From the NCBI GenBank assembly GCA_016699365.1, contig CP064973.1, positions 237,684 to 301,683 of the forward strand: DNA of 64,000 bases. Reading direction: 5' to 3'. Source of the DNA: Candidatus Nomurabacteria bacterium. Lineage in GTDB: Bacteria > Patescibacteriota > Minisyncoccia > Phycocordibacterales > UBA9973. The position numbers were made by a program, and so were the translations under genes. The notes beneath the pieces were generated by a model, which saw nothing but the letters and a program-made list of their open reading frames with translations, was not told where the DNA came from and ran no database searches. Positions 1 through 59,288 of the stretch are shown one piece after another; the stretch's first letter is position 1, and each line of letters starts with the position of its first letter.

Positions 1-2
1 AA

Positions 3-551
3 CTAAAATGGTTTGGGAGCCTACTAGCAGTACTATTTTTAGCATGGTTTATTAGTGGTGGCCCAGAGAGATACGATCTAGAAAATGACAAGCCGTTTAT
101 AAAACCACCTTCTCCACTCAACACAGGTGAAATATATGGACCAGAAAATACAGCTGTAAATCCAAATACTCCAGTTGGCTGGAAGTCTGTTTCAACAAAA
201 TACTTCTCTGTTGCACTGCCTACTGATTGGGCTTTCAATGAATCCGATTCTAGTGTATGGAATTCATACAGAGGCGAATTTACAAACGGCAGCTCAACAA
301 TCTTTTTTGAATACGGACCATATGCAACAATACCGGTTCCAACAACAGACGATCGTCACACATTTACATATGAAACAGTTGCTTCGTACTATGCGACAAT
401 GATAAAACCAACAGGCTTCATGGGAAATACGACTGGCATGTTCATAGACCGCGCCCCAGCACTAGAAAAATTCTCCATCTCGGGATACAACCTAAACCCT
501 AGTGCTCAAAACACAGCGTTTTCTATTTTTAGAACTTTAGAATTCTATTAG
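3..551 (+). CDS. 3' fragment of a hypothetical membrane-anchored/secreted protein (gene starts upstream of window)
   Basis: 183 consecutive sense codons open from position 3 to TAG at 549-551. Missing from the ORF track because there is no in-window Met start. The N-terminal part is hydrophobic (LKWFGSLLAVLFLAWFISGG). Confidence 0.45.
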   Translation, partial: LKWFGSLLAVLFLAWFISGGPERYDLENDKPFIKPPSPLNTGEIYGPENTAVNPNTPVGWKSVSTKYFSVALPTDWAFNESDSSVWNSYRGEFTNGSSTIFFEYGPYATIPVPTTDDRHTFTYETVASYYATMIKPTGFMGNTTGMFIDRAPALEKFSISGYNLNPSAQNTAFSIFRTLEFY

Positions 552-1494: not shown

Positions 1495-1644
1495 ATTTGT
1501 TTGAATTAGTGGGAATCTTTCCTTACAGGAACAGTGCACCTTTTCACTCCAATAAAATTGAAGCCTGAAAAGCTTTTCGATTCCTACACGCAAGCAAAGC
1601 AGTTTGCTTGCTCGGGAGGACAAAGCCTCGCTTCGCTCATTTTG

Positions 1645-1717
1645 TCCTCCCGGTAGGAATCGAACCTACGACCCTCTCCTTAAAAGGGAGCTGCTCTACC
1701 GACTGAGCTACGGGAGG
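1645..1717 (-). tRNA. tRNA-Lys (anticodon UUU)
   Basis: Hand-folded cloverleaf: acceptor CCTCCCG/CGGGAGG, D-arm GCTC..GAGC, anticodon loop CTTTTAA, T-arm GTAGG TTCGATT CCTAC. There is one G.A mismatch at the top of the anticodon stem. Confidence 0.7.
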
Positions 1718-19386: not shown

Positions 19387-20484
19387 TTATCTATTCATAG
19401 GCATAACTAAATATATAAATGTTTGATCACTACCACCTTTTATAATAAGAGGTTTATTGGTTCCATTGAATTTCAAAGTTATACTATCTTGGTTTATAGA
19501 TTGAAAACAATCAATAATATATCTGTAATTAAAACTCATAGAAATTGATTCACCTTCTATAGTCGCATCAATTTTAGTTTTATTTTCTCCTATATCATTA
19601 TTTCTAGCATTCAATTCACATATTTTATTTTTAGGATCTATATTGAAAGTTATTTGATTAAATTTATCAGAAAAAATATTTGATATTTTTAAAGCATTTA
19701 GGAAATCTTGTCTCAATAAAACAACTTCTGTTGTAAAGTTTTTTGGAATTATTTGTTTATAATCTGGGAAAACACCATCTATTATTCTTGAGGTTATATA
19801 AATACCATCAAAAATAAAAGATATTTGATTTTTACTAATAACACATTCTACATCCTCGTTTGTAGTCTCAAGTATTCGCACTATTTCATTTATATTCTTA
19901 AAAGGTATAAGAATTGGGGAAAAATCTGTACTATGTTTTGATTTTATCTTTTTTTCTGCAAGTCTGAATGAGTCTGTGGCAACAAAAACTAAATTTTCAT
20001 CCTCAGAATATATATAAACACTAGCCATTTCAGGTTTTATATCAGATGTTGAACAACTATAAACAACAGCTTTTATACCTTCAACTATTTTCTTTGAATT
20101 TAAAGTGTGTTTATCCCCAGAAACAACAGGTATTGTTGGAAAATCCTCATATGAGCTAGATTTAATCAATAATTGGTTATTTTTAGTTATTATTACCAAA
20201 TTATCATTTTCTTGTTTTAGTTCTATATCTTCATTGTCTGAAACTGTTGAGAAAATCTGCGATAAAACATCACCTCTTACAGCTACAACACCTTCTTTGT
20301 TAACCTTTACAGGAATATCAACCTCTATACCTAAACTTAGGTTTGTTGATCTAAACTTAAGTGTTTTACCAGAAGCAATTATAAGAATAGAACTTAAAAT
20401 AGGTAAAGTTAGATTTTTACCTGTAATTCTCTCTGTTAATTGGATTGCTTGTTTTATTCTTTTTGCACTAGTAGTTATATTCAT
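19387..20484 (-). CDS. dnaN: DNA polymerase III beta sliding clamp
   Basis: 365 aa; three-domain clamp length; adjacent to dnaA. Confidence 0.85.
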   Translation of the reverse strand: MNITTSAKRIKQAIQLTERITGKNLTLPILSSILIIASGKTLKFRSTNLSLGIEVDIPVKVNKEGVVAVRGDVLSQIFSTVSDNEDIELKQENDNLVIITKNNQLLIKSSSYEDFPTIPVVSGDKHTLNSKKIVEGIKAVVYSCSTSDIKPEMASVYIYSEDENLVFVATDSFRLAEKKIKSKHSTDFSPILIPFKNINEIVRILETTNEDVECVISKNQISFIFDGIYITSRIIDGVFPDYKQIIPKNFTTEVVLLRQDFLNALKISNIFSDKFNQITFNIDPKNKICELNARNNDIGENKTKIDATIEGESISMSFNYRYIIDCFQSINQDSITLKFNGTNKPLIIKGGSDQTFIYLVMPMNR

Positions 20485-20693
20485 AGTATTTTTTATTTAT
20501 TTAATTAAATACTTATATTAGTCCTGTGGATATGTGGATATCTATGTTTTATGTTGGTATATAAAGTAATTTTGAATTTATTTATTATATTTTTAAGTTA
20601 ATTTAAATTCATTTAATTTTATATCTAACAATAAACTAAACTTTATATATACTTATTAATTATTTATGTACACATTTCAGATAGTTATTAACA
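20485..20693. promoter_or_regulatory. candidate oriC: overlapping DnaA-box-like 9-mers plus AT-rich unwinding region between dnaA and dnaN
   Basis: TGTGGATATGTGGATAT at 20525-20541 (two 8/9 matches to TGTGGATAA), followed by a roughly 130 bp tract with almost no G/C (20560-20690). Confidence 0.5.
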
Positions 20694-22040
20694 TTATTTA
20701 AACATAACTCTTATCTGTTCTAATTCTTGTACAAGAGTTTGGTTTGTTTTTAAATCTTCTTTTATCTTCAAGAATGAATGTATAACTGTTGTATGATCCT
20801 TACCGCCCAATTTTTGACCTATTAGAGGATATGAAACATTAAAATCCTCACGAAGAAGATACATTATCATCTGTCTGGTTTTAACAATCTCTTTTCTGCG
20901 TGTTTTTTCATAAACTGTAGCTTCATCTATATTGTAAAATTGAGTAACAATCTTAACTACTTCATCTATAGAAACACTTTTCTTAGGTCTAATGTTGTTT
21001 TTTATTAGATTTTTAGCTTCTGTTAATGAAATCTCTTTATTTTTCAACCTAGTTTGACAAACAATAGCGTTCAAACTTCCTTCAAGTTCTCGAATAGATC
21101 CATTTATAGATGAAGCTATAAAATCTACAACATCGTCATTTATAGGAACACCCTGATCTCTTACCTTGGCTTTAAGTATAGCTAGTCTTGCTTCATATTC
21201 TGGCTCACCTATATCAATAATCATTCCAGCTTGGAATCTAGACTTCATACGATCTTCTAGACCAGGAATATAGTTTGGATGTTTATCTGAAGAAAATATT
21301 ATTTGTTTATTGTTCTCGTAGAAAGTGTTAAAAGTGTGGAAAAGCTCTTCTTGGGTCTTTTCCATCTTCCCTACAAACTGAATATCATCAATTATTAAAA
21401 CATCATACTTCCTATATTTCTCTTTGAAAGAGTTTGCTTTATTTGTTTGAAAAGAAGTTATTAAATCTGTGGCAAATTTTTCAAGGGTTATGTAATGTAC
21501 TCTTTTTTCAGGGTATTTTGTCTTTATTGTGTTCCCTATTGCTTGAATTAAGTGTGTTTTACCAAGCCCTGTTCCTCCATATACGAAAAATGGGTTATAA
21601 CTTGTTCCTGGTTTACTTACAATAGCTTGTGAAGCAGCAAAAGCTAATTCATTGAAACCTCCAACTATAAAACCATCGAATATATACCTAGGGTTTAAAT
21701 TATCCTCTTTGTTTATATAAAGATCTGCTAAAGGCAATTCTTTATTTAACATAGATTTTTGTTCAACCTCTTCTATTTTTTGTCTTATATCGTGTTTTAC
21801 TATTACAAATTCAACACCTCGAACATGTTCGGAGTGATTCATAAGAGTTTTTAATATCAATTTATGGTATTTATTGAAAAGCCAATCTTTAACAAATTCA
21901 TTAGGTACTCCAACATAAGCAGTTCCCGAATCTTGTTTAGTAATAGAAGTATTTTTAAACCAAGTGCTGAAATTAGCCCTAGAAACAGACTGTTCAATCT
22001 CAGATAGGCATGTTTCCCAAAGTTGTTTATTTTCTCCCAT
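20694..22040 (-). CDS. dnaA: chromosomal replication initiator DnaA
   Basis: 448 aa; AAA+ Walker A GGTGLGKTHL; C-terminal DNA-binding domain (helix-turn-helix with KTRRKEIV..RQ..MYL). Confidence 0.9.
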   Translation of the reverse strand: MGENKQLWETCLSEIEQSVSRANFSTWFKNTSITKQDSGTAYVGVPNEFVKDWLFNKYHKLILKTLMNHSEHVRGVEFVIVKHDIRQKIEEVEQKSMLNKELPLADLYINKEDNLNPRYIFDGFIVGGFNELAFAASQAIVSKPGTSYNPFFVYGGTGLGKTHLIQAIGNTIKTKYPEKRVHYITLEKFATDLITSFQTNKANSFKEKYRKYDVLIIDDIQFVGKMEKTQEELFHTFNTFYENNKQIIFSSDKHPNYIPGLEDRMKSRFQAGMIIDIGEPEYEARLAILKAKVRDQGVPINDDVVDFIASSINGSIRELEGSLNAIVCQTRLKNKEISLTEAKNLIKNNIRPKKSVSIDEVVKIVTQFYNIDEATVYEKTRRKEIVKTRQMIMYLLREDFNVSYPLIGQKLGGKDHTTVIHSFLKIKEDLKTNQTLVQELEQIRVMFK

Positions 22041-22186
22041 ATGTTTAGTTAGTCTATTATAGTCTACAGATACATAATAAAAAGCCCTTAAATAAAACTA
22101 GAATTGTGTATAAACTGTTAATAATATCTAATAAAAAATAAAACAGATTCTTGCCGAAAAAAGCCTTTTAATGTATGATGCAAGGC

Positions 22187-22321
22187 ATGTCACAAACATA
22201 CCAACCAAAGAAGAAAAAGAGAGCCAAAACTCACGGTTTTCGAAACAGAATAAAGTCAAAAAACGGTAAAAAAATACTTACCCGAAGACGTCAAAAAGGC
22301 AGAGCAAAGCTAACTGTATAG
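22187..22321 (+). CDS. rpmH: 50S ribosomal protein L34
   Basis: 44 aa [44 protein letters not shown]. Below the ORF-track length cutoff. Confidence 0.85.
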
Positions 22322-30785: not shown

Positions 30786-31706
30786 TTGAACATGTCTGAA
30801 GTCGAAAATCTAAAACGTCAATTTTTGGAATATATGGAAATTGAACGTGGAGCAAGTCTTAATACTGTTTCAAATTACGATAGATACTTGTCTCGGTTTT
30901 TTGAGTTTATAAAATCTGACAATATAAAAAACATCACAGATGATTCAATTCGTGAATACAGACTATATCTAAATAGGCAGCCAGGTATGCATGTTCGTGG
31001 GCAGTCTAGCTCTACAATGAAGAAAAACACTCAAAACTATTACTTAATAGCGCTTCGAAGATTTCTAAAATACCTGATGAAGCGCGGAATTAGTGCAATA
31101 TCCCCCGATGCAATAGAGCTCGCAAAGATCAAGGAAAGACATCTAGATCTTATAAGTGTAGATGAGCTAAACAGACTCTTGAAAGCTCCAGACACAGAAG
31201 AAATCGGTTCTCTTAGAGATCGTGCGATATTGGAACTTTTTTTCTCGACAGGTCTTCGCTTGTCAGAGTTATGTTCTTTGAATCGAGATTTAGATTTATC
31301 TAAAGATGAATTTTCAATTCGAGGTAAAGGTGAAAAGGTTCGTGTGGTTTTTCTGTCCGATACTGCAAAATCTGCAATACGTGCTTATTTAAAAAAGCGC
31401 GTTGATACAGATGAGCCAATGTTCGTTCAGCACGCTCGCAATAAAGGTCAGGGTGGTGGACGTTTAACACAAAGGTCAATTGAAAGAATTGTAAAACACT
31501 ATGCAATAAAGGCCGGTATTTCCAAGAAAGTTACTCCGCACGTAATACGTCACTCTTTTGCAACAGACCTACTCTCAAACGGCGCTGATATTCGCTCTGT
31601 GCAGATGATGCTTGGGCATGCAAATATTGCTACAACTCAAATATATACACACGTAACAGACAAACAACTTCGAGATGTACACAAAAAGTTTCATTCAAAG
31701 AAATAA
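30786..31706 (+). CDS. xerC: tyrosine site-specific recombinase XerC/XerD family
   Basis: 306 aa; C-terminal catalytic motifs RHSFATDLLSNGADIRSVQMMLGHANIATTQIYTHV with R..HxxR..Y. Confidence 0.8.
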   Translation: MNMSEVENLKRQFLEYMEIERGASLNTVSNYDRYLSRFFEFIKSDNIKNITDDSIREYRLYLNRQPGMHVRGQSSSTMKKNTQNYYLIALRRFLKYLMKRGISAISPDAIELAKIKERHLDLISVDELNRLLKAPDTEEIGSLRDRAILELFFSTGLRLSELCSLNRDLDLSKDEFSIRGKGEKVRVVFLSDTAKSAIRAYLKKRVDTDEPMFVQHARNKGQGGGRLTQRSIERIVKHYAIKAGISKKVTPHVIRHSFATDLLSNGADIRSVQMMLGHANIATTQIYTHVTDKQLRDVHKKFHSKK

Positions 31707-36259: not shown

Positions 36260-37024
36260 ATGAACTATACAAATGAACTAATTCGCATAGGACTCACCCG
36301 AGAGCAGGCTCTCATATATGAAGTACTACTCGCTTCTCCTCTTTTACCTGTACGCAATATTTCTAAAAATGCTGGTGTGGGCCGCGAGCTTACTTACTAT
36401 GTACTAGATCAACTCACTATTCTCGGCTTGTGTGAAAAAGTGGAACATGTCGGCAAGGTAGCACTATGGCGCGCAAAGCATCCAGAGAGTATCAAAAAAG
36501 TTGCCGAAGAAAAGAAACTTCTCGCAGATGAAGCAAGCTTAGCTTACGGAAAAGTCATCGAGCACCTTGTAAGTGACTTCAATACCCTTCACTCTCGTCC
36601 GCATGTAAAATTCTTTGAAGGTTTCGATGGACTCAACGAAACATATGCTGATATTTTAAAAAATGCAAAAGAAGTTTTTGTATTCCGCTCCCTATATGAT
36701 CATGAGAACTCTGAACTTCGCGCGCTCGTAAGCGAGCAACTAAAAAAGCAGTCCAAGGCTGGGATTCGTTCGTATGTGCTCACTCCAAAACTAGAGCATA
36801 TGTCTAATGTTGTATATTCGCATGATTTAGAGCGCAACATAACTCGCAAAATTATTCCAAAAGATAAGTTTGTTTTACCGGCATATATCTTGATCTACAA
36901 AGGTAAGGTTAGTATCACTTCTGTTAAAAACAAAGACTCGATGGTTACAACACTTATTGAAAACTCAGATATTGCAGATACATTTCTGACACTATTCCAA
37001 TTTATGTGGGATTCCATTGAATAG
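36260..37024 (+). CDS. TrmB-family transcriptional regulator
   Basis: 254 aa; N-terminal winged HTH of TrmB type (LTREQALIYEVLL...ISKNAGVGRELTYYVLDQL); paralogous architecture to the 46166-46939 gene. Confidence 0.5.
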   Translation: MNYTNELIRIGLTREQALIYEVLLASPLLPVRNISKNAGVGRELTYYVLDQLTILGLCEKVEHVGKVALWRAKHPESIKKVAEEKKLLADEASLAYGKVIEHLVSDFNTLHSRPHVKFFEGFDGLNETYADILKNAKEVFVFRSLYDHENSELRALVSEQLKKQSKAGIRSYVLTPKLEHMSNVVYSHDLERNITRKIIPKDKFVLPAYILIYKGKVSITSVKNKDSMVTTLIENSDIADTFLTLFQFMWDSIE

Positions 37025-38935: not shown

Positions 38936-40186
38936 ATGAAAAAAATACTTATATTTTTATTTTTTATATTTCCTAAATTTATTTTTGCACAGAACTTTGT
39001 TCCTGTATGGGAAGACACCTATCTTCCAGATCAGGAAGCTGGTTGTTATGTTTCATCTTTGGATTTACAAAATGAAACGATTTTTATCGGACGGTACTGT
39101 GGGGCAGAAGACGAGATTGTTTTTGGAGATATTTCCTCAGAAGAGTGGATGGAATGTGATATTCCCGACTCCCTCGGAGAGATTTCTTCTGGTGGTGTAA
39201 TAGAGGGTGTGTTCTACGTTTATACAGAATCAAACTGGATACTGTCAGTAGATCAGTTGTGTGAAACGGAGGTGGTCGCCAAGAGTGATGGCTGGGCCAA
39301 AATATTTTCCGAGGACGACACCCTTTATGTCTTCGGCTCTAGTGTCTATATAGACGATACCTTGTCCCCTCCTTTTGTTCACTCTTTTGTTCCTGCGACG
39401 AACACTTGGGAGTCATTCCCAAATCCAGAATCTGAATCTGTGATCGGTCTGACAATTTTTCAAAACAAAATGTTTTGCGTTGGACTAGATGATGGGATTC
39501 AAAAGATTTTCCAACTAGACGATTCTCTTTGGAATGTCGTTTATGTTTTTCCAGAAGATGAGCATTTCGTTTCTTGGGAACCTGTCGAAGATAGGATTTA
39601 TGTTTCCTCGACTAACTTCGCTCCCCCACTTGAGTACGGAATATTTTCTGAATTCAAGGACGGAGATATGGACTCGTTGTTTTCAAGTGATGGAAATATT
39701 CTCGACATTTCTGCGAGCGACTGCTTTGTAACTGTTGTTGGTAATTTTACAAATTTTGGAAATTGCGATGCAGAGAACCTGGCGATGTTTGATCGATCTA
39801 CAAAAGAGATTGTTCAGACTGACCGCGGACTTGATGGAAATGGATATGCCGTAGTTGAAAGCGACGAACTATTTTATGCAGGCGGTGCGTTCACCTATGG
39901 AGCAGATATTTATTCACCCGGAATAATATCTCTTCCCTCTTGTTATGAAGTTGGTATCGAAGATATTTCAGAAAACGAGATAAAGATTTTTCCAAACCCA
40001 GCAACAGATTTCCTTTCAATAGAAAACGGTGTTGGAAAAGTTGTTAGAGTATTTTCTTTATCAGAGGAAATATATTTGATGGCAAATGAAATTGAAAATA
40101 GAAAAGTTTTCGATGTTGTGAATCTTTCATCCGGAACTTACTATGTTTTGATTGAAGGAAAAGTTTTTTCTTTTATAAAAATATAA
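38936..40186 (+). CDS. secreted protein with T9SS-type (Por) C-terminal sorting domain
   Basis: Signal peptide ...FIFAQ. C-terminal roughly 75 aa IKIFPNPATDFLSIENG...LSSGTYYVLIEGKVFSFIKI matches the Por_Secre_tail pattern (PNPa.d.l.i ... GvY.v). Confidence 0.55.
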   Translation: MKKILIFLFFIFPKFIFAQNFVPVWEDTYLPDQEAGCYVSSLDLQNETIFIGRYCGAEDEIVFGDISSEEWMECDIPDSLGEISSGGVIEGVFYVYTESNWILSVDQLCETEVVAKSDGWAKIFSEDDTLYVFGSSVYIDDTLSPPFVHSFVPATNTWESFPNPESESVIGLTIFQNKMFCVGLDDGIQKIFQLDDSLWNVVYVFPEDEHFVSWEPVEDRIYVSSTNFAPPLEYGIFSEFKDGDMDSLFSSDGNILDISASDCFVTVVGNFTNFGNCDAENLAMFDRSTKEIVQTDRGLDGNGYAVVESDELFYAGGAFTYGADIYSPGIISLPSCYEVGIEDISENEIKIFPNPATDFLSIENGVGKVVRVFSLSEEIYLMANEIENRKVFDVVNLSSGTYYVLIEGKVFSFIKI

Positions 40187-41832: not shown

Positions 41833-41913
41833 AGCGGTTATTGATATAAAAGAGATTATAACAGCAAAAGCTTATTTTGCAATTTGTTATATAAAGCTTA
41901 TACTGACCTTACT

Positions 41914-41985
41914 GCACCCATAGTGAAATGGATATCATACCGGTCTTCGGAACCGTTGTTGGGGGTTCGAATCCCTCTGGGTGCA
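41914..41985 (+). tRNA. tRNA-Arg (anticodon UCG)
   Basis: Hand-folded: acceptor GCACCCA/TGGGTGC; D-arm GTGA..TCAT (with G.U); anticodon loop CTTCGGA; T-arm GGGGG TTCGAAT CCCTC. One C.T mismatch in the anticodon stem. Confidence 0.55.
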
Positions 41986-42187
41986 CATGCGAGGAGGACT
42001 ATTGTCCGACGATTCATGTACAAGGCGCAGAGATACTTCAAGTAGCAACTTGAAGTATCGAGCCAGGGGCGCGAAATTTTCTGCGCGACGGCGAAGAAAA
42101 TATTTGTGACCACTAATGACCAAATAGAAACCAATGTCCTTTACACCCTGTCTTTTACACACAAAAAACCCTTATTTTTCAACAAAA

Positions 42188-42196
42188 TGTGGATAA
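42188..42196 (+). promoter_or_regulatory. perfect DnaA-box 9-mer TGTGGATAA
   Basis: Exact match to the reverse complement of the consensus TTATCCACA, about 130 bp upstream of the iteron-like array. Confidence 0.35.
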
Positions 42197-42321
42197 GTGT
42201 GTGTACATAGTTCATAAAGGACAGGTTGTTGGTATAAAGGAAATGGGCGTATATCGCTATTTTAGCTTAATTTATAAGGGTTTTTATCTAGATTGACTGC
42301 AATAATGCTTTTTTGTGTCTT

Positions 42322-42606
42322 ATAAACAGCCTATATGTTTCACGTGAAACATATAGGCTGTTTATATATTAAATTAACCTTTTTTGTTACACATGAAACA
42401 AGAAATATCATCCTTTTGTATGTAAGCACACCAATTTGTGTTTTATTTTTCCAATTGCACATAATTTGGTTTCATGTGTAACAACGAAATTTATAAATAG
42501 CTAATCTTGTTTTTGTTTCATGTGCAACGTTTATATGTAGGTGTATTTACATACTTTTGTTTTTATAATCTCTGTGTAACAATAAAAATACTGTTACACA
42601 TGAAAC
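42322..42606. promoter_or_regulatory. iteron-like array: 5 copies of a 14-bp semi-palindromic motif GTT(T/A)CAC(G/A)TG(A/T)AAC, including a perfect 44-bp palindrome
   Basis: Copies at 42336-42352 (the centre of palindrome 42322-42365 ataaacagcctatatgtttcacgtgaaacatataggctgtttat), 42386-42400, 42468-42483 (reverse), 42515-42528 (reverse) and 42591-42606, the last abutting the yraN ATG. Confidence 0.45.
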
Positions 42607-42981
42607 ATGCCTAAAGTATTTACTTCAAAATCTCAAAAGAAAGGTGAATTGGGAGAGGATTTGGCCTGTAGGTTTCTCATGAAACATGGTTATTATATTG
42701 TGGAGCGTAATTACACACGAAGACTTGGTGAAATAGACATAATAGCCGAAAAATACGGCGTGATTCACTTTATAGAGGTTAAATCAGTCTCTTTTTATGC
42801 AACCATTAGGCCTGAAGAAAATATGCATCCAATGAAATTAAAGAAAATATATAGGACAATAGAGGTTTATATCCAAGAGAGGGGTATAAAGGACAAAGAC
42901 TGGCAACTCGATCTAGTGTGTGTCCTTTTGGATGAAGTGGGGAAGAGGGCTAAATTTAGAGTTATTGAAAATATTGTTTAA
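42607..42981 (+). CDS. yraN: YraN-family (UPF0102) predicted endonuclease
   Basis: 124 aa; KGELGEDLACRFLMKHGYYIVERNYTRRLGEIDIIAEK...IHFIEVKS matches the YraN signature. Confidence 0.7.
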   Translation: MPKVFTSKSQKKGELGEDLACRFLMKHGYYIVERNYTRRLGEIDIIAEKYGVIHFIEVKSVSFYATIRPEENMHPMKLKKIYRTIEVYIQERGIKDKDWQLDLVCVLLDEVGKRAKFRVIENIV

Positions 42982-46165: not shown

Positions 46166-46939
46166 CTACTTTGCCTGCTCCCAAGCAATTTTATACAAAG
46201 ATTTTAGAAGCGAAGCTATCTTACTGTTTTTGATAGTTATTGAATGCAGTCCACTATCCCAAACAGTAAAACAAGCAGTATCTCCAAATATAGATGCTTG
46301 AACTTCTGGGTTATATATTTCCCTTGGAAGAGAGCGAACTTCTCGTCCTTTGCCGATTGCGTCCAATTTTTCACTGTCTGTCATAGGAGAATCTGGCATC
46401 AAAATCATGGATTTTATACCTTTTTTCATACGTAATTTACGGTAATCAGCCAATCTGTCACGAGCAACAGTAAATTTCTCCGGATCTCCACCTAGTCGTA
46501 ACACTTCGCTATGTTTTCCTTCTAGAGAAGAATAAAAAGTTTTCACAAATCCGTCTTCTCCATGAAGTTCTTCGACCACTATAGGTTCTTCGCCTTTTTC
46601 TGTAGCAAAAATAGCATTTAGTTCTGGAAGTGTTTGTTCTAAGATACTTTTTCTTTCATTTAGAATATTTTGATCAAACTCAACAAGAGATCTAATCCTT
46701 TCTGGGGTGTCTATATAAAAAAGTCTTCGTTTGCCTTGCTTGTGCACTAAGACAACTCCACGTTCAATAAGTTCTTCGGTTGCTAGGTGGACACTTGAAC
46801 GAGGAAGACCGACTGATTTTGCGAGATCTTGAATAGACAGAAGTCCTGCACCAAGTAAGCTAGAGAACACTTCAACTTGTGTCCTGTCTAAACCCGCTTT
46901 ACGAAGAGAAGATTTAAATTCTTGAGATAATTGTTTCAT
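46166..46939 (-). CDS. TrmB-family transcriptional regulator
   Basis: 257 aa; N-terminal wHTH (LDRTQVEVFSSLLGAG..SIQDLAKSVGLPRSSVHLATEELIERG). Confidence 0.5.
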   Translation of the reverse strand: MKQLSQEFKSSLRKAGLDRTQVEVFSSLLGAGLLSIQDLAKSVGLPRSSVHLATEELIERGVVLVHKQGKRRLFYIDTPERIRSLVEFDQNILNERKSILEQTLPELNAIFATEKGEEPIVVEELHGEDGFVKTFYSSLEGKHSEVLRLGGDPEKFTVARDRLADYRKLRMKKGIKSMILMPDSPMTDSEKLDAIGKGREVRSLPREIYNPEVQASIFGDTACFTVWDSGLHSITIKNSKIASLLKSLYKIAWEQAK

Positions 46940-48414: not shown

Positions 48415-48649
48415 GTTGTACATGTCGGACGGGTAACCTGTATAACCCATCACCGTTCCACGAAGGGTATGGGGGCCGACATCCTGGGAAATGAGAAGTG
48501 GTCAAATGAACCGCTTCTCATCTTTATCAGACTCATGAGTTTGTTTCGTGGGTCTGTAGAGATATTGAAGTATAAACAGAGAGCATTGCGTAGGCACTGC
48601 AGTGCTCCGTGTTTGTTCTTTAAATAGTTTCACGAGTAAAAATCTATAT

Positions 48650-48889: not shown

Positions 48890-48991
48890 CCTGATACGAA
48901 GATATATTCCATACGTTTAGTCAGTTTCACAAGTAAAACGAAAAAAGACAAAAGAAACGTTACACAAAACTAAACTAAAAAACGTAAACGT

Positions 48992-57962: not shown

Positions 57963-59288
57963 TTAAAATTTAACGAATCTTCCTTGGAAATGTTCAGATT
58001 TAACTGAATAAATTCCAGCAGGCAGATTTTCAATATTGATTATTATCTTTGAGTCGTTGACTAACTTGTTGTTAAAACTAACCAGTTGTCCATATGAGTT
58101 AAAAATGCTCACTTCATCAAATATATTTTCAATATTATCAATCTCTATAGTTACGATGTCCTTTGCTGGGTTAGGATAGATGTTTATGTTTTTTTCAATC
58201 TCAAATATTGAGATATTTGTAGTGTCTTCAGTAGTGTCTACTGGAGTTTCTACTTTATAAACAAACATCCAAGATCCAATAGCCGCATATAAGTCATCTC
58301 CTATAAAACCAATATCTTTACCTGCGCCAGTTCCGGCTATGCTTGTTCCGTCTACTGATTTCCATTCCAAAGTATTTGGATCGTAGGTTACGATAGGGTT
58401 TACTTCTACTCCGTTTACTTCATCTAAGTCTCCGTAAAAATAAACTAGACCATCATGGGATTTTATTCCCACAGGCTCTCCATTCATATTGCCTATGACG
58501 TTGAATACTACACCATCGGTTGATTCATAGAACTCTTTGTCTCCTCCGTCAAAATTCCAGAGGGCAATATATAGCTTATCTTCGGATCTCGCAATTGCGT
58601 ATACTATGAAATTAGTCGGTAAATTTGTGCTTTCGGCACTCTCGCAGCCGCAAGATTCATCCCATATAAAGAGATTTTTGTAATCTTGCGGTAATGAAAA
58701 ATATCCTATGTAATATTTACCTGCAAAATAAACCATGTCAGTAGGTGTTCCGTTTACTGAGAAACCCGGTAATGGTGATACGTTTTCACCATCGTACACA
58801 AATGCACCAGGATAAGGGCTTGTGAAATCACCTAAAACTACTAGATTTCCATCGCTTAGTGTATCTAATACTGTTACACCACCGTCGATATTTATCCCAG
58901 AACTTTCCCAAGGGTCATTTATGTTATCTTTTTTTGCGAGTTTCCACATCGGATCATCCGATACTCCACCTGCATAACTAATTCCATGAGAAACAGCGAA
59001 GTCTTTTATACCTCCGCTCTCATCTTCAGGGAATCCACTTTGAGGATTAATGAATTCATCGTTTTCCATTATTGCAAATTTTGCAAAAGGGAAACCAGCG
59101 CTTTCATTGAACGATCCTCCAATCATTATTTGTCCAGTAGATTCATTGGTCTCGATTACGTTTATGTAACCGGGAACATAATCAATCGGAGACAATGATT
59201 GAGCATTCGCAGTCAATAAACTGCTTAAAAATAAGGCTAAGATGTATAAATTCTTCATCTTTTTAGATATTTTTTTATTAAAAAACAA
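57963..59288 (-). CDS. secreted protein with T9SS-type (Por) C-terminal sorting domain
   Basis: Signal peptide ...LLTANAQ; C-terminal NINIYPNPAKDIVTIEIDN...LPAGIYSVKSE...FVKF matches the Por_Secre_tail pattern. Confidence 0.5.
   Translation of the reverse strand: MFFNKKISKKMKNLYILALFLSSLLTANAQSLSPIDYVPGYINVIETNESTGQIMIGGSFNESAGFPFAKFAIMENDEFINPQSGFPEDESGGIKDFAVSHGISYAGGVSDDPMWKLAKKDNINDPWESSGINIDGGVTVLDTLSDGNLVVLGDFTSPYPGAFVYDGENVSPLPGFSVNGTPTDMVYFAGKYYIGYFSLPQDYKNLFIWDESCGCESAESTNLPTNFIVYAIARSEDKLYIALWNFDGGDKEFYESTDGVVFNVIGNMNGEPVGIKSHDGLVYFYGDLDEVNGVEVNPIVTYDPNTLEWKSVDGTSIAGTGAGKDIGFIGDDLYAAIGSWMFVYKVETPVDTTEDTTNISIFEIEKNINIYPNPAKDIVTIEIDNIENIFDEVSIFNSYGQLVSFNNKLVNDSKIIINIENLPAGIYSVKSEHFQGRFVKF

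What the first reader, a model, noticed from the sequence alone, without database searches (positions are those of the whole stretch)
42188..42606. Iteron-like array of a CACGTG-centred palindromic 14-mer (5 copies, both orientations, one perfect 44-bp palindrome) plus a perfect DnaA box, wedged between tRNA-Arg and yraN
In 42320-42606 there are five copies of GTT(T/A)CAC(G/A)TG(A/T)AAC. One forms the centre of a perfect 44-bp palindrome at 42322-42365. The last overlaps the yraN start codon. A perfect TGTGGATAA DnaA box lies at 42188-42196, and GC-rich hairpins follow tRNA-Arg, for example gatacttcaag/cttgaagtatc. This architecture resembles plasmid or phage iteron origins, or a multi-operator regulatory hub. 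The half-site GTTTCAC recurs upstream of two small genes further along (48624, 48913). The real chromosomal oriC is elsewhere, at 20485-20693, so this would be a second, possibly element-derived, origin or regulator binding array.
Basis: seen in the sequence. Interest (0 to 1): 0.65.

Follow-up and report, generated by a model that had tools for sequence, protein, structure and literature searches.

The report
Chromosomal parS centromere cluster, DnaA boxes
The repeated CACGTG-centred palindrome is the standard bacterial centromere sequence parS, present as six clustered copies about 21 kb from the replication origin of an uncultured Paceibacterota (CPR) bacterium and next to a conserved group of DnaA boxes, so it is a known kind of element rather than a plasmid-like or second origin.

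Summary
The extended motif at 42336-42351, TGTTTCACGTGAAACA, matches the pan-bacterial parS site bound by ParB/Spo0J at 16 of 16 positions. Five weaker copies (2-3 mismatches) follow within 350 bp. One abuts the yraN start codon and one lies inside yraN. No other site occurs in the 64 kb window.

The organism is a Paceibacterota (CPR) bacterium. dnaA-dnaN and a classical oriC lie 21 kb away. In 80 related genomes the same motif piles up at the syntenic yraN/tRNA/CCA-enzyme locus: 346 sites in 806 kb. Around dnaA in 80 relatives there are only 2 sites in 586 kb.

The "DnaA box" is not a chance hit either. TTATCCACA is the most enriched 9-mer in this intergenic region (36 of 48 loci). It heads a conserved cluster of 3-4 boxes upstream of yraN, always in the order boxes, parS, yraN.

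I found no Rep gene, no direct-repeat iterons and no plasmid or phage similarity, so the iteron and second-origin reading is not supported.

Main gap: no ParB or ParA gene occurs in the window or in 160 related loci, and the whole genome could not be searched. Verdict: a new member of a known kind, of modest interest. The parS/DnaA-box/yraN coupling and the extended palindromes around the main parS are the fresh details.

The parts
42336..42351 (.). parS-1, TGTTTCACGTGAAACA. A perfect 16/16 match to the chromosomal parS consensus; the primary ParB nucleation site.
   Evidence: Consensus taken from PMC7022226 Table 1. Perfect copies occur at the syntenic position in 18 of 80 related loci.
42321..42366 (.). 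A 46-bp perfect palindrome (two 23-nt arms, no spacer) centred on parS-1.
   Evidence: I2, 100% complementary. As single-stranded DNA it folds at -19.8 kcal/mol, z = -12. Relatives also have extended arms whose sequences differ but stay complementary.
42385..42400 (+). parS-2, TGTTACACATGAAACA (14/16).
   Evidence: The same variant recurs in relatives.
42468..42483 (-). parS-3. On the - strand it reads TGTTACACATGAAACC (13/16).
   Evidence: It is a 15-nt exact inverted copy of parS-5 (I10).
42514..42529 (.). parS-4, TGTTTCATGTGCAACG (13/16).
42592..42607 (+). parS-5, TGTTACACATGAAACA (14/16). Its last base is the A of the yraN start codon.
   Evidence: The junction ACATGAAACATGCCTAA is conserved in L001 and L002.
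42671..42686 (.). parS-6, GGTTTCTCATGAAACA (13/16), inside the yraN coding sequence (codons for R-F-L-M-K-H).
   Evidence: A motif-like sequence sits at the equivalent yraN position in many relatives even though the encoded residues differ.
42135..42223 (-). Conserved DnaA-box cluster. It holds the perfect box TTATCCACA (42188-42196, - strand) and two degenerate tandem boxes ending in ATAAAGGACA (42200-42223). Inverted box-like elements TGTCCTTTAC and TGTCTTTTACACA lie at 42135-42161.
   Evidence: TTATCCACA is the top-enriched 9-mer in this intergenic region: 36 of 48 syntenic loci, 37 occurrences against 0.93 expected. The tandem and inverted box arrangement is shown. The cluster lies upstream of yraN on its strand in 34 of 54 loci, against 1 in the opposite orientation and 0 in a control window.
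42607..42981 (+). yraN (UPF0102/PF02021, predicted PD-(D/E)xK-type nuclease fold). This is the gene downstream of the box cluster and the parS array.
   Evidence: Pfam E = 5e-21. Synteny with parS and the DnaA boxes is shown.
41914..41986 (+). tRNA-Arg(TCG), the left border of the 620-bp intergenic region.
41987..42110 (+). GC-rich hairpin region after tRNA-Arg, including the 11-bp stem at 42032-42059. Probably the tRNA 3' trailer or a terminator; not part of the parS array.
   Evidence: RNA fold -48 kcal/mol, z = -5.3. No Rfam match. The sequence is not conserved in L001 or L002.
20485..20693 (-). dnaA-dnaN spacer. AT-rich, with two overlapping DnaA boxes (TGTGGATATGTGGATAT, 20525-20541). The likely oriC core, 21.7 kb from parS-1.
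   Evidence: An equivalent box pair about 60 bp upstream of dnaN, and another pair upstream of dnaA, occur in most of 80 related loci.

Best explanation
The array is the chromosome's centromere-like region. It is a tight cluster of six parS sites: one perfect, two with 2 mismatches and three with 3 mismatches.

Inferred mechanism, taken from the established ParABS model and not tested here:
- ParB (Spo0J) dimers recognise the 16-bp palindrome through their helix-turn-helix domains.
- They bind CTP, close into sliding clamps and spread over the neighbouring kilobases (yraN, the tRNA genes, the CCA-enzyme gene).
- The resulting partition complex marks the origin-proximal DNA for segregation, with ParA if present, and for SMC loading.

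What is shown directly:
- Exact identity to the universal parS consensus.
- Restriction of the motif to this one locus.
- Proximity to the origin (21 kb from dnaA-dnaN).
- Strong conservation of the motif cluster at the syntenic locus across Paceibacterota, including copies embedded in coding sequence.

A conserved cluster of 3-4 DnaA boxes lies immediately upstream. It belongs to the 5' region of yraN, because it stays with yraN when yraN is moved away from the parS/CCA region. I infer that it is either a DnaA-controlled yraN promoter (TGGATA-17 nt-TATAAA in relatives, overlapping the boxes) or a DnaA-titrating box cluster. ParB bound at parS sites between this element and the yraN ATG would also be placed to dampen yraN expression.

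This is not a second replication origin and not a mobile-element relic.
For: 1. 42336-42351 is TGTTTCACGTGAAACA, which is the parS consensus listed for B. subtilis, Caulobacter, Hyphomonas and Burkholderia chromosome 1 (also the papers).
2. All six sites with 3 or fewer mismatches in 64 kb fall within 42336-42686; chance gives 0.35.
3. dnaA, dnaN, rpmH, rnpA, yidC and jag lie at 19.4-24.1 kb, so the array is 21 kb from the classical origin region. The same distance of about 21 kb is seen on a 356,709-bp contig of a relative (L023 and L144).
4. Clade control: 346 sites (3 or fewer mismatches), 20 of them perfect, in 806 kb of 80 yraN/CCA loci, against 2 sites and 0 perfect in 586 kb of 80 dnaA loci.
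5. The per-position pattern tGTTnCAygTGnAACa has invariant G2 T3 T4 C6 / G11 A13 A14 C15 and a free position 5, as in the published tGTTNCACGTGAAACa.
6. Sites occur inside the yraN and CCA-enzyme coding sequences in relatives. This is typical of parS and unlike promoter operators.
7. DnaA-box cluster.
8. The classical oriC box pairs are conserved at dnaA in 80 relatives, with no parS there.
9. There is no plasmid or phage similarity.
Against: - No ParB (PF02195) or ParA gene was found in any window ORF of 110 aa or more.
- None was found in 10 kb beyond the left end of the window.
- None was found in 160 related loci, about 1.4 Mb in total. This used tblastn and phmmer with a Spo0J query validated against PDB 6sdk. 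The one exception is an orphan ParA-like ORF in L089.
- The rest of the genome could not be searched, so the cognate binder is inferred.
- Five of the six sites carry 2-3 mismatches, and their affinity is unknown.
- The long perfect palindrome around parS-1, and similar non-homologous extensions in relatives, are not needed for ParB binding and remain unexplained.
- A site abutting the yraN ATG could also act as an operator.
Confidence: 0.82

Rival explanations
1. The array is an operator set for a local transcription factor, for example one of the TrmB-like winged-helix proteins at 36260-37024 or 46166-46939. That factor would repress or activate yraN, and the resemblance to parS would be coincidental.
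For: One site ends on the yraN start codon and others fill its 5' region. Two TrmB-like genes lie within 6 kb. A weak promoter-like match overlaps parS-2.
Against: - The 16/16 match to parS recurs in 18 relatives.
- Sites also occur deep inside the CCA-enzyme and yraN coding regions.
- The TrmB-like genes are syntenic only in L001 and L002, whereas the motif cluster is conserved in about 70 loci.
- Promoter-like hits in the region are at chance level: 7 found against 6.3 expected.
Confidence: 0.07
2. The region is a replication origin. It would be either the true oriC of this lineage, displaced from dnaA, or a second origin that uses the DnaA-box cluster with the AT-rich parS stretch as the unwinding region.
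For: A conserved cluster of 3-4 DnaA boxes, with tandem boxes 12 and about 20 bp apart plus an inverted box, lies 150 bp from parS-1. Box density is 2.2 per kb here against 0.35 per kb elsewhere. The intergenic region is long (620 bp) and AT-rich.
Against: - The box cluster follows yraN, not parS, in rearranged genomes (L050, L053, L078) and always points towards yraN. This fits a promoter-associated element.
- Classical oriC signatures are conserved at dnaA in 80 relatives: box pairs upstream of dnaA and in the very AT-rich dnaA-dnaN spacer, in an rpmH-rnpA/dnaA-dnaN arrangement.
- No DnaA-trio-like periodicity or obvious unwinding element adjoins the boxes (by eye).
- GC skew and gene orientation in 64 kb do not discriminate between the two sites.
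Confidence: 0.06
3. The region is a relic or active origin of an integrated plasmid or phage, with iterons and a DnaA box.
For: Only superficial resemblance: several copies of a short repeat plus a DnaA box in an intergenic region.
Against: - The repeats are palindromic and occur in both orientations, not as directly repeated iterons, and their spacing is irregular (49, 83, 46, 78, 79 bp).
- There are no rep, integrase-flanked or partition genes nearby.
- blastn against 72,556 plasmids and 50,697 phages gave no match.
- Housekeeping synteny (yraN, tRNAs, CCA enzyme, xerC) is conserved in dozens of genomes.
- There is no compositional anomaly.
Confidence: 0.01
4. The copies are a generic dispersed palindromic repeat (REP- or MITE-like) that happens to have several copies here.
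For: There is a long perfect palindrome, and relatives also have extended palindromes.
Against: There are no copies in the other 63.6 kb of the window and only 2 weak matches in 586 kb of dnaA loci from the same clade. The conserved core equals parS, while the flanks are not conserved.
Confidence: 0.01

Closest known systems
Chromosomal parS sites of the ParABS system (B. subtilis Spo0J/parS; Caulobacter, Hyphomonas and Streptococcus pneumoniae parS)
   Same: - The same 16-bp palindrome tGTTNCACGTGAAACa.
- Few copies, close to the origin.
- Some copies lie inside coding sequences.
- Degenerate copies accompany a consensus copy.
   Different: - Six sites are packed into 350 bp in one intergenic region and gene start. 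They are not near parAB and not within 4 kb of dnaA.
- No parAB genes lie within about 30 kb to the left or 43 kb to the right of oriC.
- The main site is embedded in a 46-bp perfect palindrome.
- The host is a CPR/Paceibacterota bacterium. I found no parS or ParB description for this group in the searchable literature.
Multi-parS centromere regions of Myxococcus xanthus (22 sites), Streptomyces coelicolor (21 sites) and Caulobacter (5 sites)
   Same: Arrays of several parS sites concentrated in the origin domain (Table 1 of PMC7022226).
   Different: From my own knowledge, those arrays are spread over kilobases to tens of kilobases. Here the array spans 0.35 kb in the window and about 0.3-3 kb in relatives.
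DnaA-box clusters outside oriC (B. subtilis DBCs, E. coli datA) and DnaA-regulated promoters such as the dnaA promoter
   Same: Several closely spaced DnaA boxes, conserved, origin-proximal, in an intergenic or promoter region. What is known about DBCs and datA comes from my own knowledge.
   Different: This cluster is tied to the 5' region of yraN and, in most genomes, is followed directly by parS sites. I know of no such box-parS-gene arrangement having been described.
Plasmid and phage iteron origins
   Same: A short motif present in multiple copies near a DnaA box.
   Different: Iterons are direct repeats bound by a cis-encoded Rep protein. Here the repeats are palindromes, there is no rep gene, and there is no plasmid or phage homology.
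E. coli yraN-diaA operon
   Same: A UPF0102/YraN gene is physically linked to the DnaA initiation circuitry. In K-12, yraN lies 19 bp upstream of diaA, which encodes the DnaA initiator-associating protein. Here yraN sits behind a DnaA-box cluster.
   Different: No diaA homologue was seen here. The link is through cis-acting DnaA boxes, and any functional connection is speculative.

Membership tests
Chromosomal parS (ParABS centromere) | A 16-bp inverted repeat matching tGTTNCACGTGAAACa | tested here: met
   42336-42351 matches 16/16. Five more sites match 13-14/16.
Chromosomal parS (ParABS centromere) | Few copies, confined to the origin-proximal part of the chromosome rather than dispersed | tested here: met
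   All sites lie within 350 bp, 21.7 kb from the dnaA-dnaN spacer. There are no further sites in the window and 2 weak sites in 586 kb of clade dnaA loci. The rest of the genome was not seen.
Chromosomal parS (ParABS centromere) | Conservation of the sites in related genomes | tested here: met
   68 of 80 related loci have at least one site with 2 or fewer mismatches, and 18 have a perfect site, at the syntenic yraN/CCA locus.
Chromosomal parS (ParABS centromere) | A cognate ParB/Spo0J (ParBc N-terminal domain plus HTH) encoded in the genome | tested here: inconclusive
   None was found in the window, in the 10-kb left extension or in 160 related loci. Only about 74 kb of an estimated 0.6-1 Mb genome was accessible. 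The Spo0J homologue search returned only Bacillus proteins.
Chromosomal parS (ParABS centromere) | Specific ParB binding, CTP-dependent loading and spreading | not testable with these tools
   This needs EMSA, ChIP-seq or DAP-seq.
Iteron-type plasmid/phage origin | Directly repeated iterons (about 17-22 bp) in one orientation at regular spacing | tested here: not met
   The copies are palindromic and in both orientations. Centre-to-centre spacings are 49, 83, 46, 78 and 79 bp.
Iteron-type plasmid/phage origin | An adjacent rep (initiator) gene and a mobile-element context | tested here: not met
   The neighbours are tRNAs, yraN and the CCA-adding enzyme. There is no plasmid or phage similarity, and chromosomal synteny is conserved.
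Bacterial oriC | A cluster of DnaA boxes | tested here: met
   There is one perfect box in the window, plus 2-3 tandem or inverted boxes that are degenerate in the window (2-3 mismatches) and mostly one mismatch off in relatives. They are conserved in relatives.
Bacterial oriC | An adjacent AT-rich unwinding element or DnaA-trios, and a GC-skew or coverage switch at the site | tested here: inconclusive
   No trio-like periodicity is seen next to the boxes. Skew over 64 kb is dominated by gene orientation. A better candidate exists at dnaA-dnaN, with boxes conserved in 80 relatives.
DnaA-box cluster / DnaA-regulated promoter | Several conserved DnaA boxes in fixed orientation and distance upstream of a gene, overlapping promoter elements | tested here: inconclusive
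   Orientation and position relative to yraN are fixed: 34 of 54 loci, median -206 bp. The boxes stay with yraN after rearrangement. The promoter (TGGATA-17-TATAAA in relatives) is read by eye and is not picked up by the consensus scan in the window.

The most novel reading that the evidence does not exclude
Across Paceibacterota the chromosome carries one composite cis-module with a fixed order: a DnaA-box cluster, then a parS array, then yraN. In this reading the module physically couples the replication initiator DnaA and the segregation protein ParB at a site about 21 kb from oriC. The uncharacterised nuclease-fold protein YraN (UPF0102) would be a DnaA- and ParB-controlled player in replication or segregation, in line with yraN-diaA linkage in E. 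coli. The non-homologous but always complementary extensions of the main parS would then point to a hairpin or cruciform form of the centromere. A more radical variant is that the lineage lacks canonical ParB and another protein reads parS.
Probability: 0.15. Interest if true: 0.65.

Novelty: new member of a known kind. Interest (0 to 1): 0.35.

Why it matters
It assigns a clear, ordinary identity (the parS centromere) to a striking repeat array and removes the suggestion of a second or element-derived origin.

For CPR/Patescibacteria, whose cell biology is almost unknown, it gives three concrete things:
- a sequence-defined centromere conserved at one syntenic locus across many genomes;
- support for a classical dnaA-dnaN origin;
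- a testable lead that DnaA boxes and parS jointly flank yraN, a widespread gene of unknown function that sits next to diaA in E. coli.

The parS cluster is also a practical landmark for orienting and checking Paceibacterota genome assemblies.

Tried and rejected
- Rfam, at gathering thresholds and in permissive mode, found only tRNAs. The palindrome gave spurious sub-threshold miRNA hits. No RNA family explains the region.
- The promoter and terminator consensus scan was at chance level, apart from sensible divergent tRNA promoters at 41855-41904.
- ParB/ParA searches all came back negative or uninformative for this lineage: motif regex, tblastn and phmmer with Spo0J and Soj against the window and 160 loci, Pfam on every window ORF of 110 aa or more, extension of the left flank, two failed look-ups for the right flank, and one large homologue search that listed only Bacillus proteins.
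- Seven literature searches for ParB or parS in CPR/Patescibacteria/Parcubacteria found nothing relevant (papers read).
- The half-site GTTTCAC idea was rejected as chance.
- I considered that TGTCCTTTAT is a separate factor's motif. Part of it is explained as the end of a degenerate DnaA box (TGTGnATAA-AGGACA), but the conserved GGACA/TGTCC remains unexplained.
- I tried reading DnaA-trios next to the boxes and saw no convincing periodicity.
- GC skew and gene-strand bias over 64 kb cannot place the origin.
- ARAGORN's "tRNA-Stop(tta)" was checked by hand and is most simply tRNA-Lys(UUU).

Full report
**Observation.** The sequence is as described, with small corrections. GTTWCACRTGWAAC (up to 1 mismatch) occurs at 42337, 42386, 42469, 42515 and 42593. 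A sixth copy lies at 42672 inside yraN. It occurs nowhere else in the 64 kb, against 0.28 expected. The perfect palindrome is 46 bp (42321-42366) and would form a very stable hairpin or cruciform. The 9-mer TGTGGATAA at 42188-42196 is exact. tRNA-Arg (41914-41986) and yraN (42607-42981, PF02021) flank the 620-bp spacer.

**Identity of the repeat.** Extended by one base on each side, the central copy reads TGTTTCACGTGAAACA. This is the canonical chromosomal parS site bound by ParB/Spo0J. The same 16-mer or tGTTNCACGTGAAACa is tabulated for B. subtilis, Caulobacter, Hyphomonas and Burkholderia chromosome 1 in PMC7022226, and it is used as parS in a dozen papers. Scored against this 16-mer, the window has six sites with 3 or fewer mismatches, carrying 0, 2, 3, 3, 2 and 3 mismatches. 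All lie within 42336-42686. Shuffled sequence gives 0.35 such sites.

**Genomic context.** The CCA-adding enzyme next door has 86-87% identical homologues in MAGs labelled Candidatus Paceibacterota, with relatives labelled Nomurabacteria and Parcubacteria. The window therefore comes from a CPR/Patescibacteria bacterium. A near-identical contig is JAGOQN010000001.1 of GCA_017991335.1. The window holds the classical origin neighbourhood:
- dnaN at 19387-20484 and dnaA at 20694-22040;
- rpmH-rnpA-yidD-yidC-jag divergent from dnaA;
- an extremely AT-rich dnaA-dnaN spacer with two overlapping DnaA boxes.

The parS cluster is thus 21.7 kb from the likely oriC, the expected kind of place for parS. 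No window ORF of 110 aa or more has a ParB or Rep domain.

**Comparative evidence for parS.** In 80 related genomes the yraN-tRNA-CCA synteny is widely kept, and parS-like sites pile up exactly there. They occur upstream of yraN, within yraN and inside the CCA gene.
- In 806 kb of these loci there are 20 perfect sites, 54 with 1 or fewer mismatches and 346 with 3 or fewer.
- In 586 kb around dnaA from 80 relatives recovered from metagenomes there are 0, 0 and 2 respectively.
- No relative has parS within 4 kb of dnaA.
- The position-by-position pattern keeps G2 T3 T4 C6 and G11 A13 A14 C15 and tolerates changes at positions 1, 5, 8-10, 12 and 16. This matches the published degenerate consensus.
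- On one 356,709-bp contig sampled by both searches (L023 and L144), dnaA and the parS locus are again about 21 kb apart.

Sites embedded in coding sequence, restriction to one origin-proximal locus and deep conservation are the hallmarks of parS. They are not the hallmarks of a promoter operator, a dispersed repeat or plasmid iterons.

**The DnaA box.** Within the window it is one of four scattered perfect boxes. Boxes with 1 or fewer mismatches number 29 against 21 expected, so it looks like chance. Comparison with relatives reverses that view.
- In an unbiased 9-mer enrichment over the yraN-CCA spacer of 48 syntenic loci, TTATCCACA ranks first: 36 loci, 37 occurrences against 0.93 expected. 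It ranks ahead of the parS core.
- It heads a conserved block. On the window + strand this reads AAAAC-TGTGGATAA-cT-(t)GTGGATAT-GTGTATAAA-GGACA. That is three head-to-tail boxes about 12 and 20 bp apart, plus an inverted box (TGTCCTTTATnCACA) about 36-45 bp upstream.
- In this genome boxes 2 and 3 are degenerate.
- Box density in the spacer is 2.2 per kb against 0.35 per kb elsewhere in the loci.
- Of 54 loci with enough sequence upstream of yraN, 34 have a perfect box on the yraN strand within 450 bp (median -206 bp). One has a box in the opposite orientation, and none has one in a downstream control window.
- In all 25 loci with both elements the order is boxes, parS, yraN.
- In L050, L053 and L078, yraN has been separated from the CCA/parS region. 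The box cluster stays upstream of yraN while the parS sites stay at CCA.

I therefore assign the DnaA boxes to the yraN 5' region. The likely role is a DnaA-controlled promoter; TGGATA-17-TATAAA can be read in relatives, but this is by eye only. The alternative is a DnaA-titrating box cluster. As a side observation, in E. coli K-12 yraN lies 19 bp upstream of diaA, the DnaA initiator-associating protein.

**Is it a second origin?** The classical oriC signatures are conserved at dnaA in relatives. One box pair (11-bp spacing) lies about 80 bp upstream of dnaA. Another pair (8-bp spacing) lies about 60 bp upstream of dnaN, often with inverted boxes after the dnaA stop. The window's 20525/20533 pair corresponds to the latter. 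The yraN-locus boxes track a gene rather than an unwinding element. I see no DnaA-trio-like periodicity beside them. GC skew and gene orientation over 64 kb are uninformative. A displaced or secondary origin is therefore unlikely, about 6%. It cannot be excluded without whole-contig skew or coverage data. A mobile-element origin is effectively excluded:
- the repeats are palindromic, in both orientations and irregularly spaced;
- there is no rep gene;
- there is no blastn similarity to 72,556 plasmids or 50,697 phages;
- the locus is syntenic chromosomal DNA.

**Mechanism (inferred).** ParB dimers nucleate on parS-1 and the weaker sites, load as CTP-dependent clamps and spread over yraN, the tRNA genes and the CCA gene. 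This builds the partition complex that is segregated and recruits SMC. That is textbook ParABS biology and was not tested here. Because parS sites lie between the DnaA-box element and the yraN ATG, and one site ends on the ATG, ParB occupancy would probably also lower yraN expression.

**Weak points.**
- I could not find ParB or ParA. They are absent from the window, from 10 kb beyond its left end and from 160 related loci. The only exception is one orphan ParA-like ORF. The Spo0J query was validated. A large homologue search was swamped by Bacillus. Only about 10% of the genome was visible, so this is inconclusive rather than negative.
- The main parS is embedded in extended perfect palindromes in many relatives. 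Arm lengths are 12-18 nt in relatives and 23 nt here. The flanking sequences differ but remain complementary, for example caaaag|parS|cttttg and tattaaa|parS|tttaata. Nine of 20 perfect sites have arms of 12 nt or more, where about 0.1 is expected. ParB does not need this, and I have no tested explanation.
- The conserved GGACA/TGTCC flanking the box-like elements is unexplained.

**Other claims in the finding.**
- The GC-rich hairpins after tRNA-Arg are real and fold strongly (z = -5.3). They are not conserved in the closest relatives and match no Rfam family. They are probably a tRNA trailer or terminator.
- The GTTTCAC half-sites near 48.6 and 48.9 kb are within chance as a 7-mer. The two loci do share a longer AGTTTCACRAGTAAAA string upstream of two small ORFs.

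**Novelty.** The kind of element is well known. I found no description of parS or ParB in CPR/Patescibacteria in the searchable literature. This is therefore a new member of a known kind, with three details worth following up: the conserved DnaA-box-parS-yraN order, the absence of par genes near either the origin or the centromere, and the extended palindromes.

Noticed in passing
window 42321-42366; L015:4815-4850, L006, L008, L048, L001, L002, L013, L026 (positions): The perfect parS nearest yraN sits inside extended perfect palindromes, with arms of 12-23 nt. The flanks differ between genomes but stay complementary, a covariation-like pattern. ParB needs only 16 bp. A possible hairpin, cruciform or transcript stem-loop role is unexplained.
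   Followed up: partly
window 42135-42243, 42313-42327, 42886-42895; related loci: The motif TGTCYTTTAT / ATAAARGACA recurs in both orientations around the DnaA boxes and next to parS-1. It is partly the tail of degenerate DnaA boxes (TGTGnATAA-AGGACA). The conserved GGACA, often arranged as GGACA-N10-14-TGTC, has no assigned binder.
   Followed up: partly
window 1644-1717 (- strand): ARAGORN calls this a tRNA-Stop with anticodon TTA. By hand, the anticodon arm reads better as stem GCTCC/GGAGA with loop CTTTTAA. That makes it an ordinary tRNA-Lys(UUU), so there is no evidence of stop-codon suppression.
   Followed up: partly
window 41987-42110: A GC-rich, strongly folding stretch (two long hairpins; -48 kcal/mol, z = -5.3) lies directly after tRNA-Arg. 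It has no Rfam match and is not sequence-conserved in L001 or L002. L001 has different hairpins and what looks like a tRNA 3' fragment at the same place.
   Followed up: partly
window 48626-48641 and 48923-48938: Two similar strings, AGTTTCACGAGTAAAA and AGTTTCACAAGTAAAA, lie upstream of two small ORFs (starts at about 48651 and 48992). Each has 4 mismatches to parS. They could be a shared regulatory element of paralogous small genes or very weak parS-like sites.
   Followed up: no
window 20485-20693 and 22041-22187; L084-L163: The dnaA region has the classical rpmH-rnpA-yidD-yidC-jag / dnaA-dnaN layout. In 80 relatives a DnaA-box pair 11 bp apart lies about 80 bp upstream of dnaA. A second pair 8 bp apart lies about 60 bp upstream of dnaN. 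This looks like a bipartite Firmicutes-like oriC in Paceibacterota.
   Followed up: partly
window 30786-31706; 48 of the related loci L006-L080: A XerC/XerD-type tyrosine recombinase gene is syntenic with the CCA/parS locus in 48 relatives, usually 3-5 kb from the CCA gene.
   Followed up: no
window 38936-40186 and 57963-59288: Two predicted proteins carry a C-terminal Por_Secre_tail (T9SS-type sorting) domain. That is unexpected in a Patescibacteria genome.
   Followed up: no
L002:4631-5250 (reverse strand relative to window): In the close relative L002, about 600 bp containing an extra ORF is inserted between the parS array and yraN. The parS copy abutting the yraN ATG is retained.
   Followed up: no
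L089:6922-7941: One relative has an orphan 339-aa ParA-like ATPase (KGGVGKTT Walker A) just downstream of dnaN. No ParB gene follows it before the contig ends.
   Followed up: partly
window 36260-37024 and 46166-46939: Two paralogous TrmB-like winged-helix regulators flank the region at about 6 kb and 4 kb. They are conserved at high identity only in L001 and L002, so they are unlikely partners of the parS array.
   Followed up: partly
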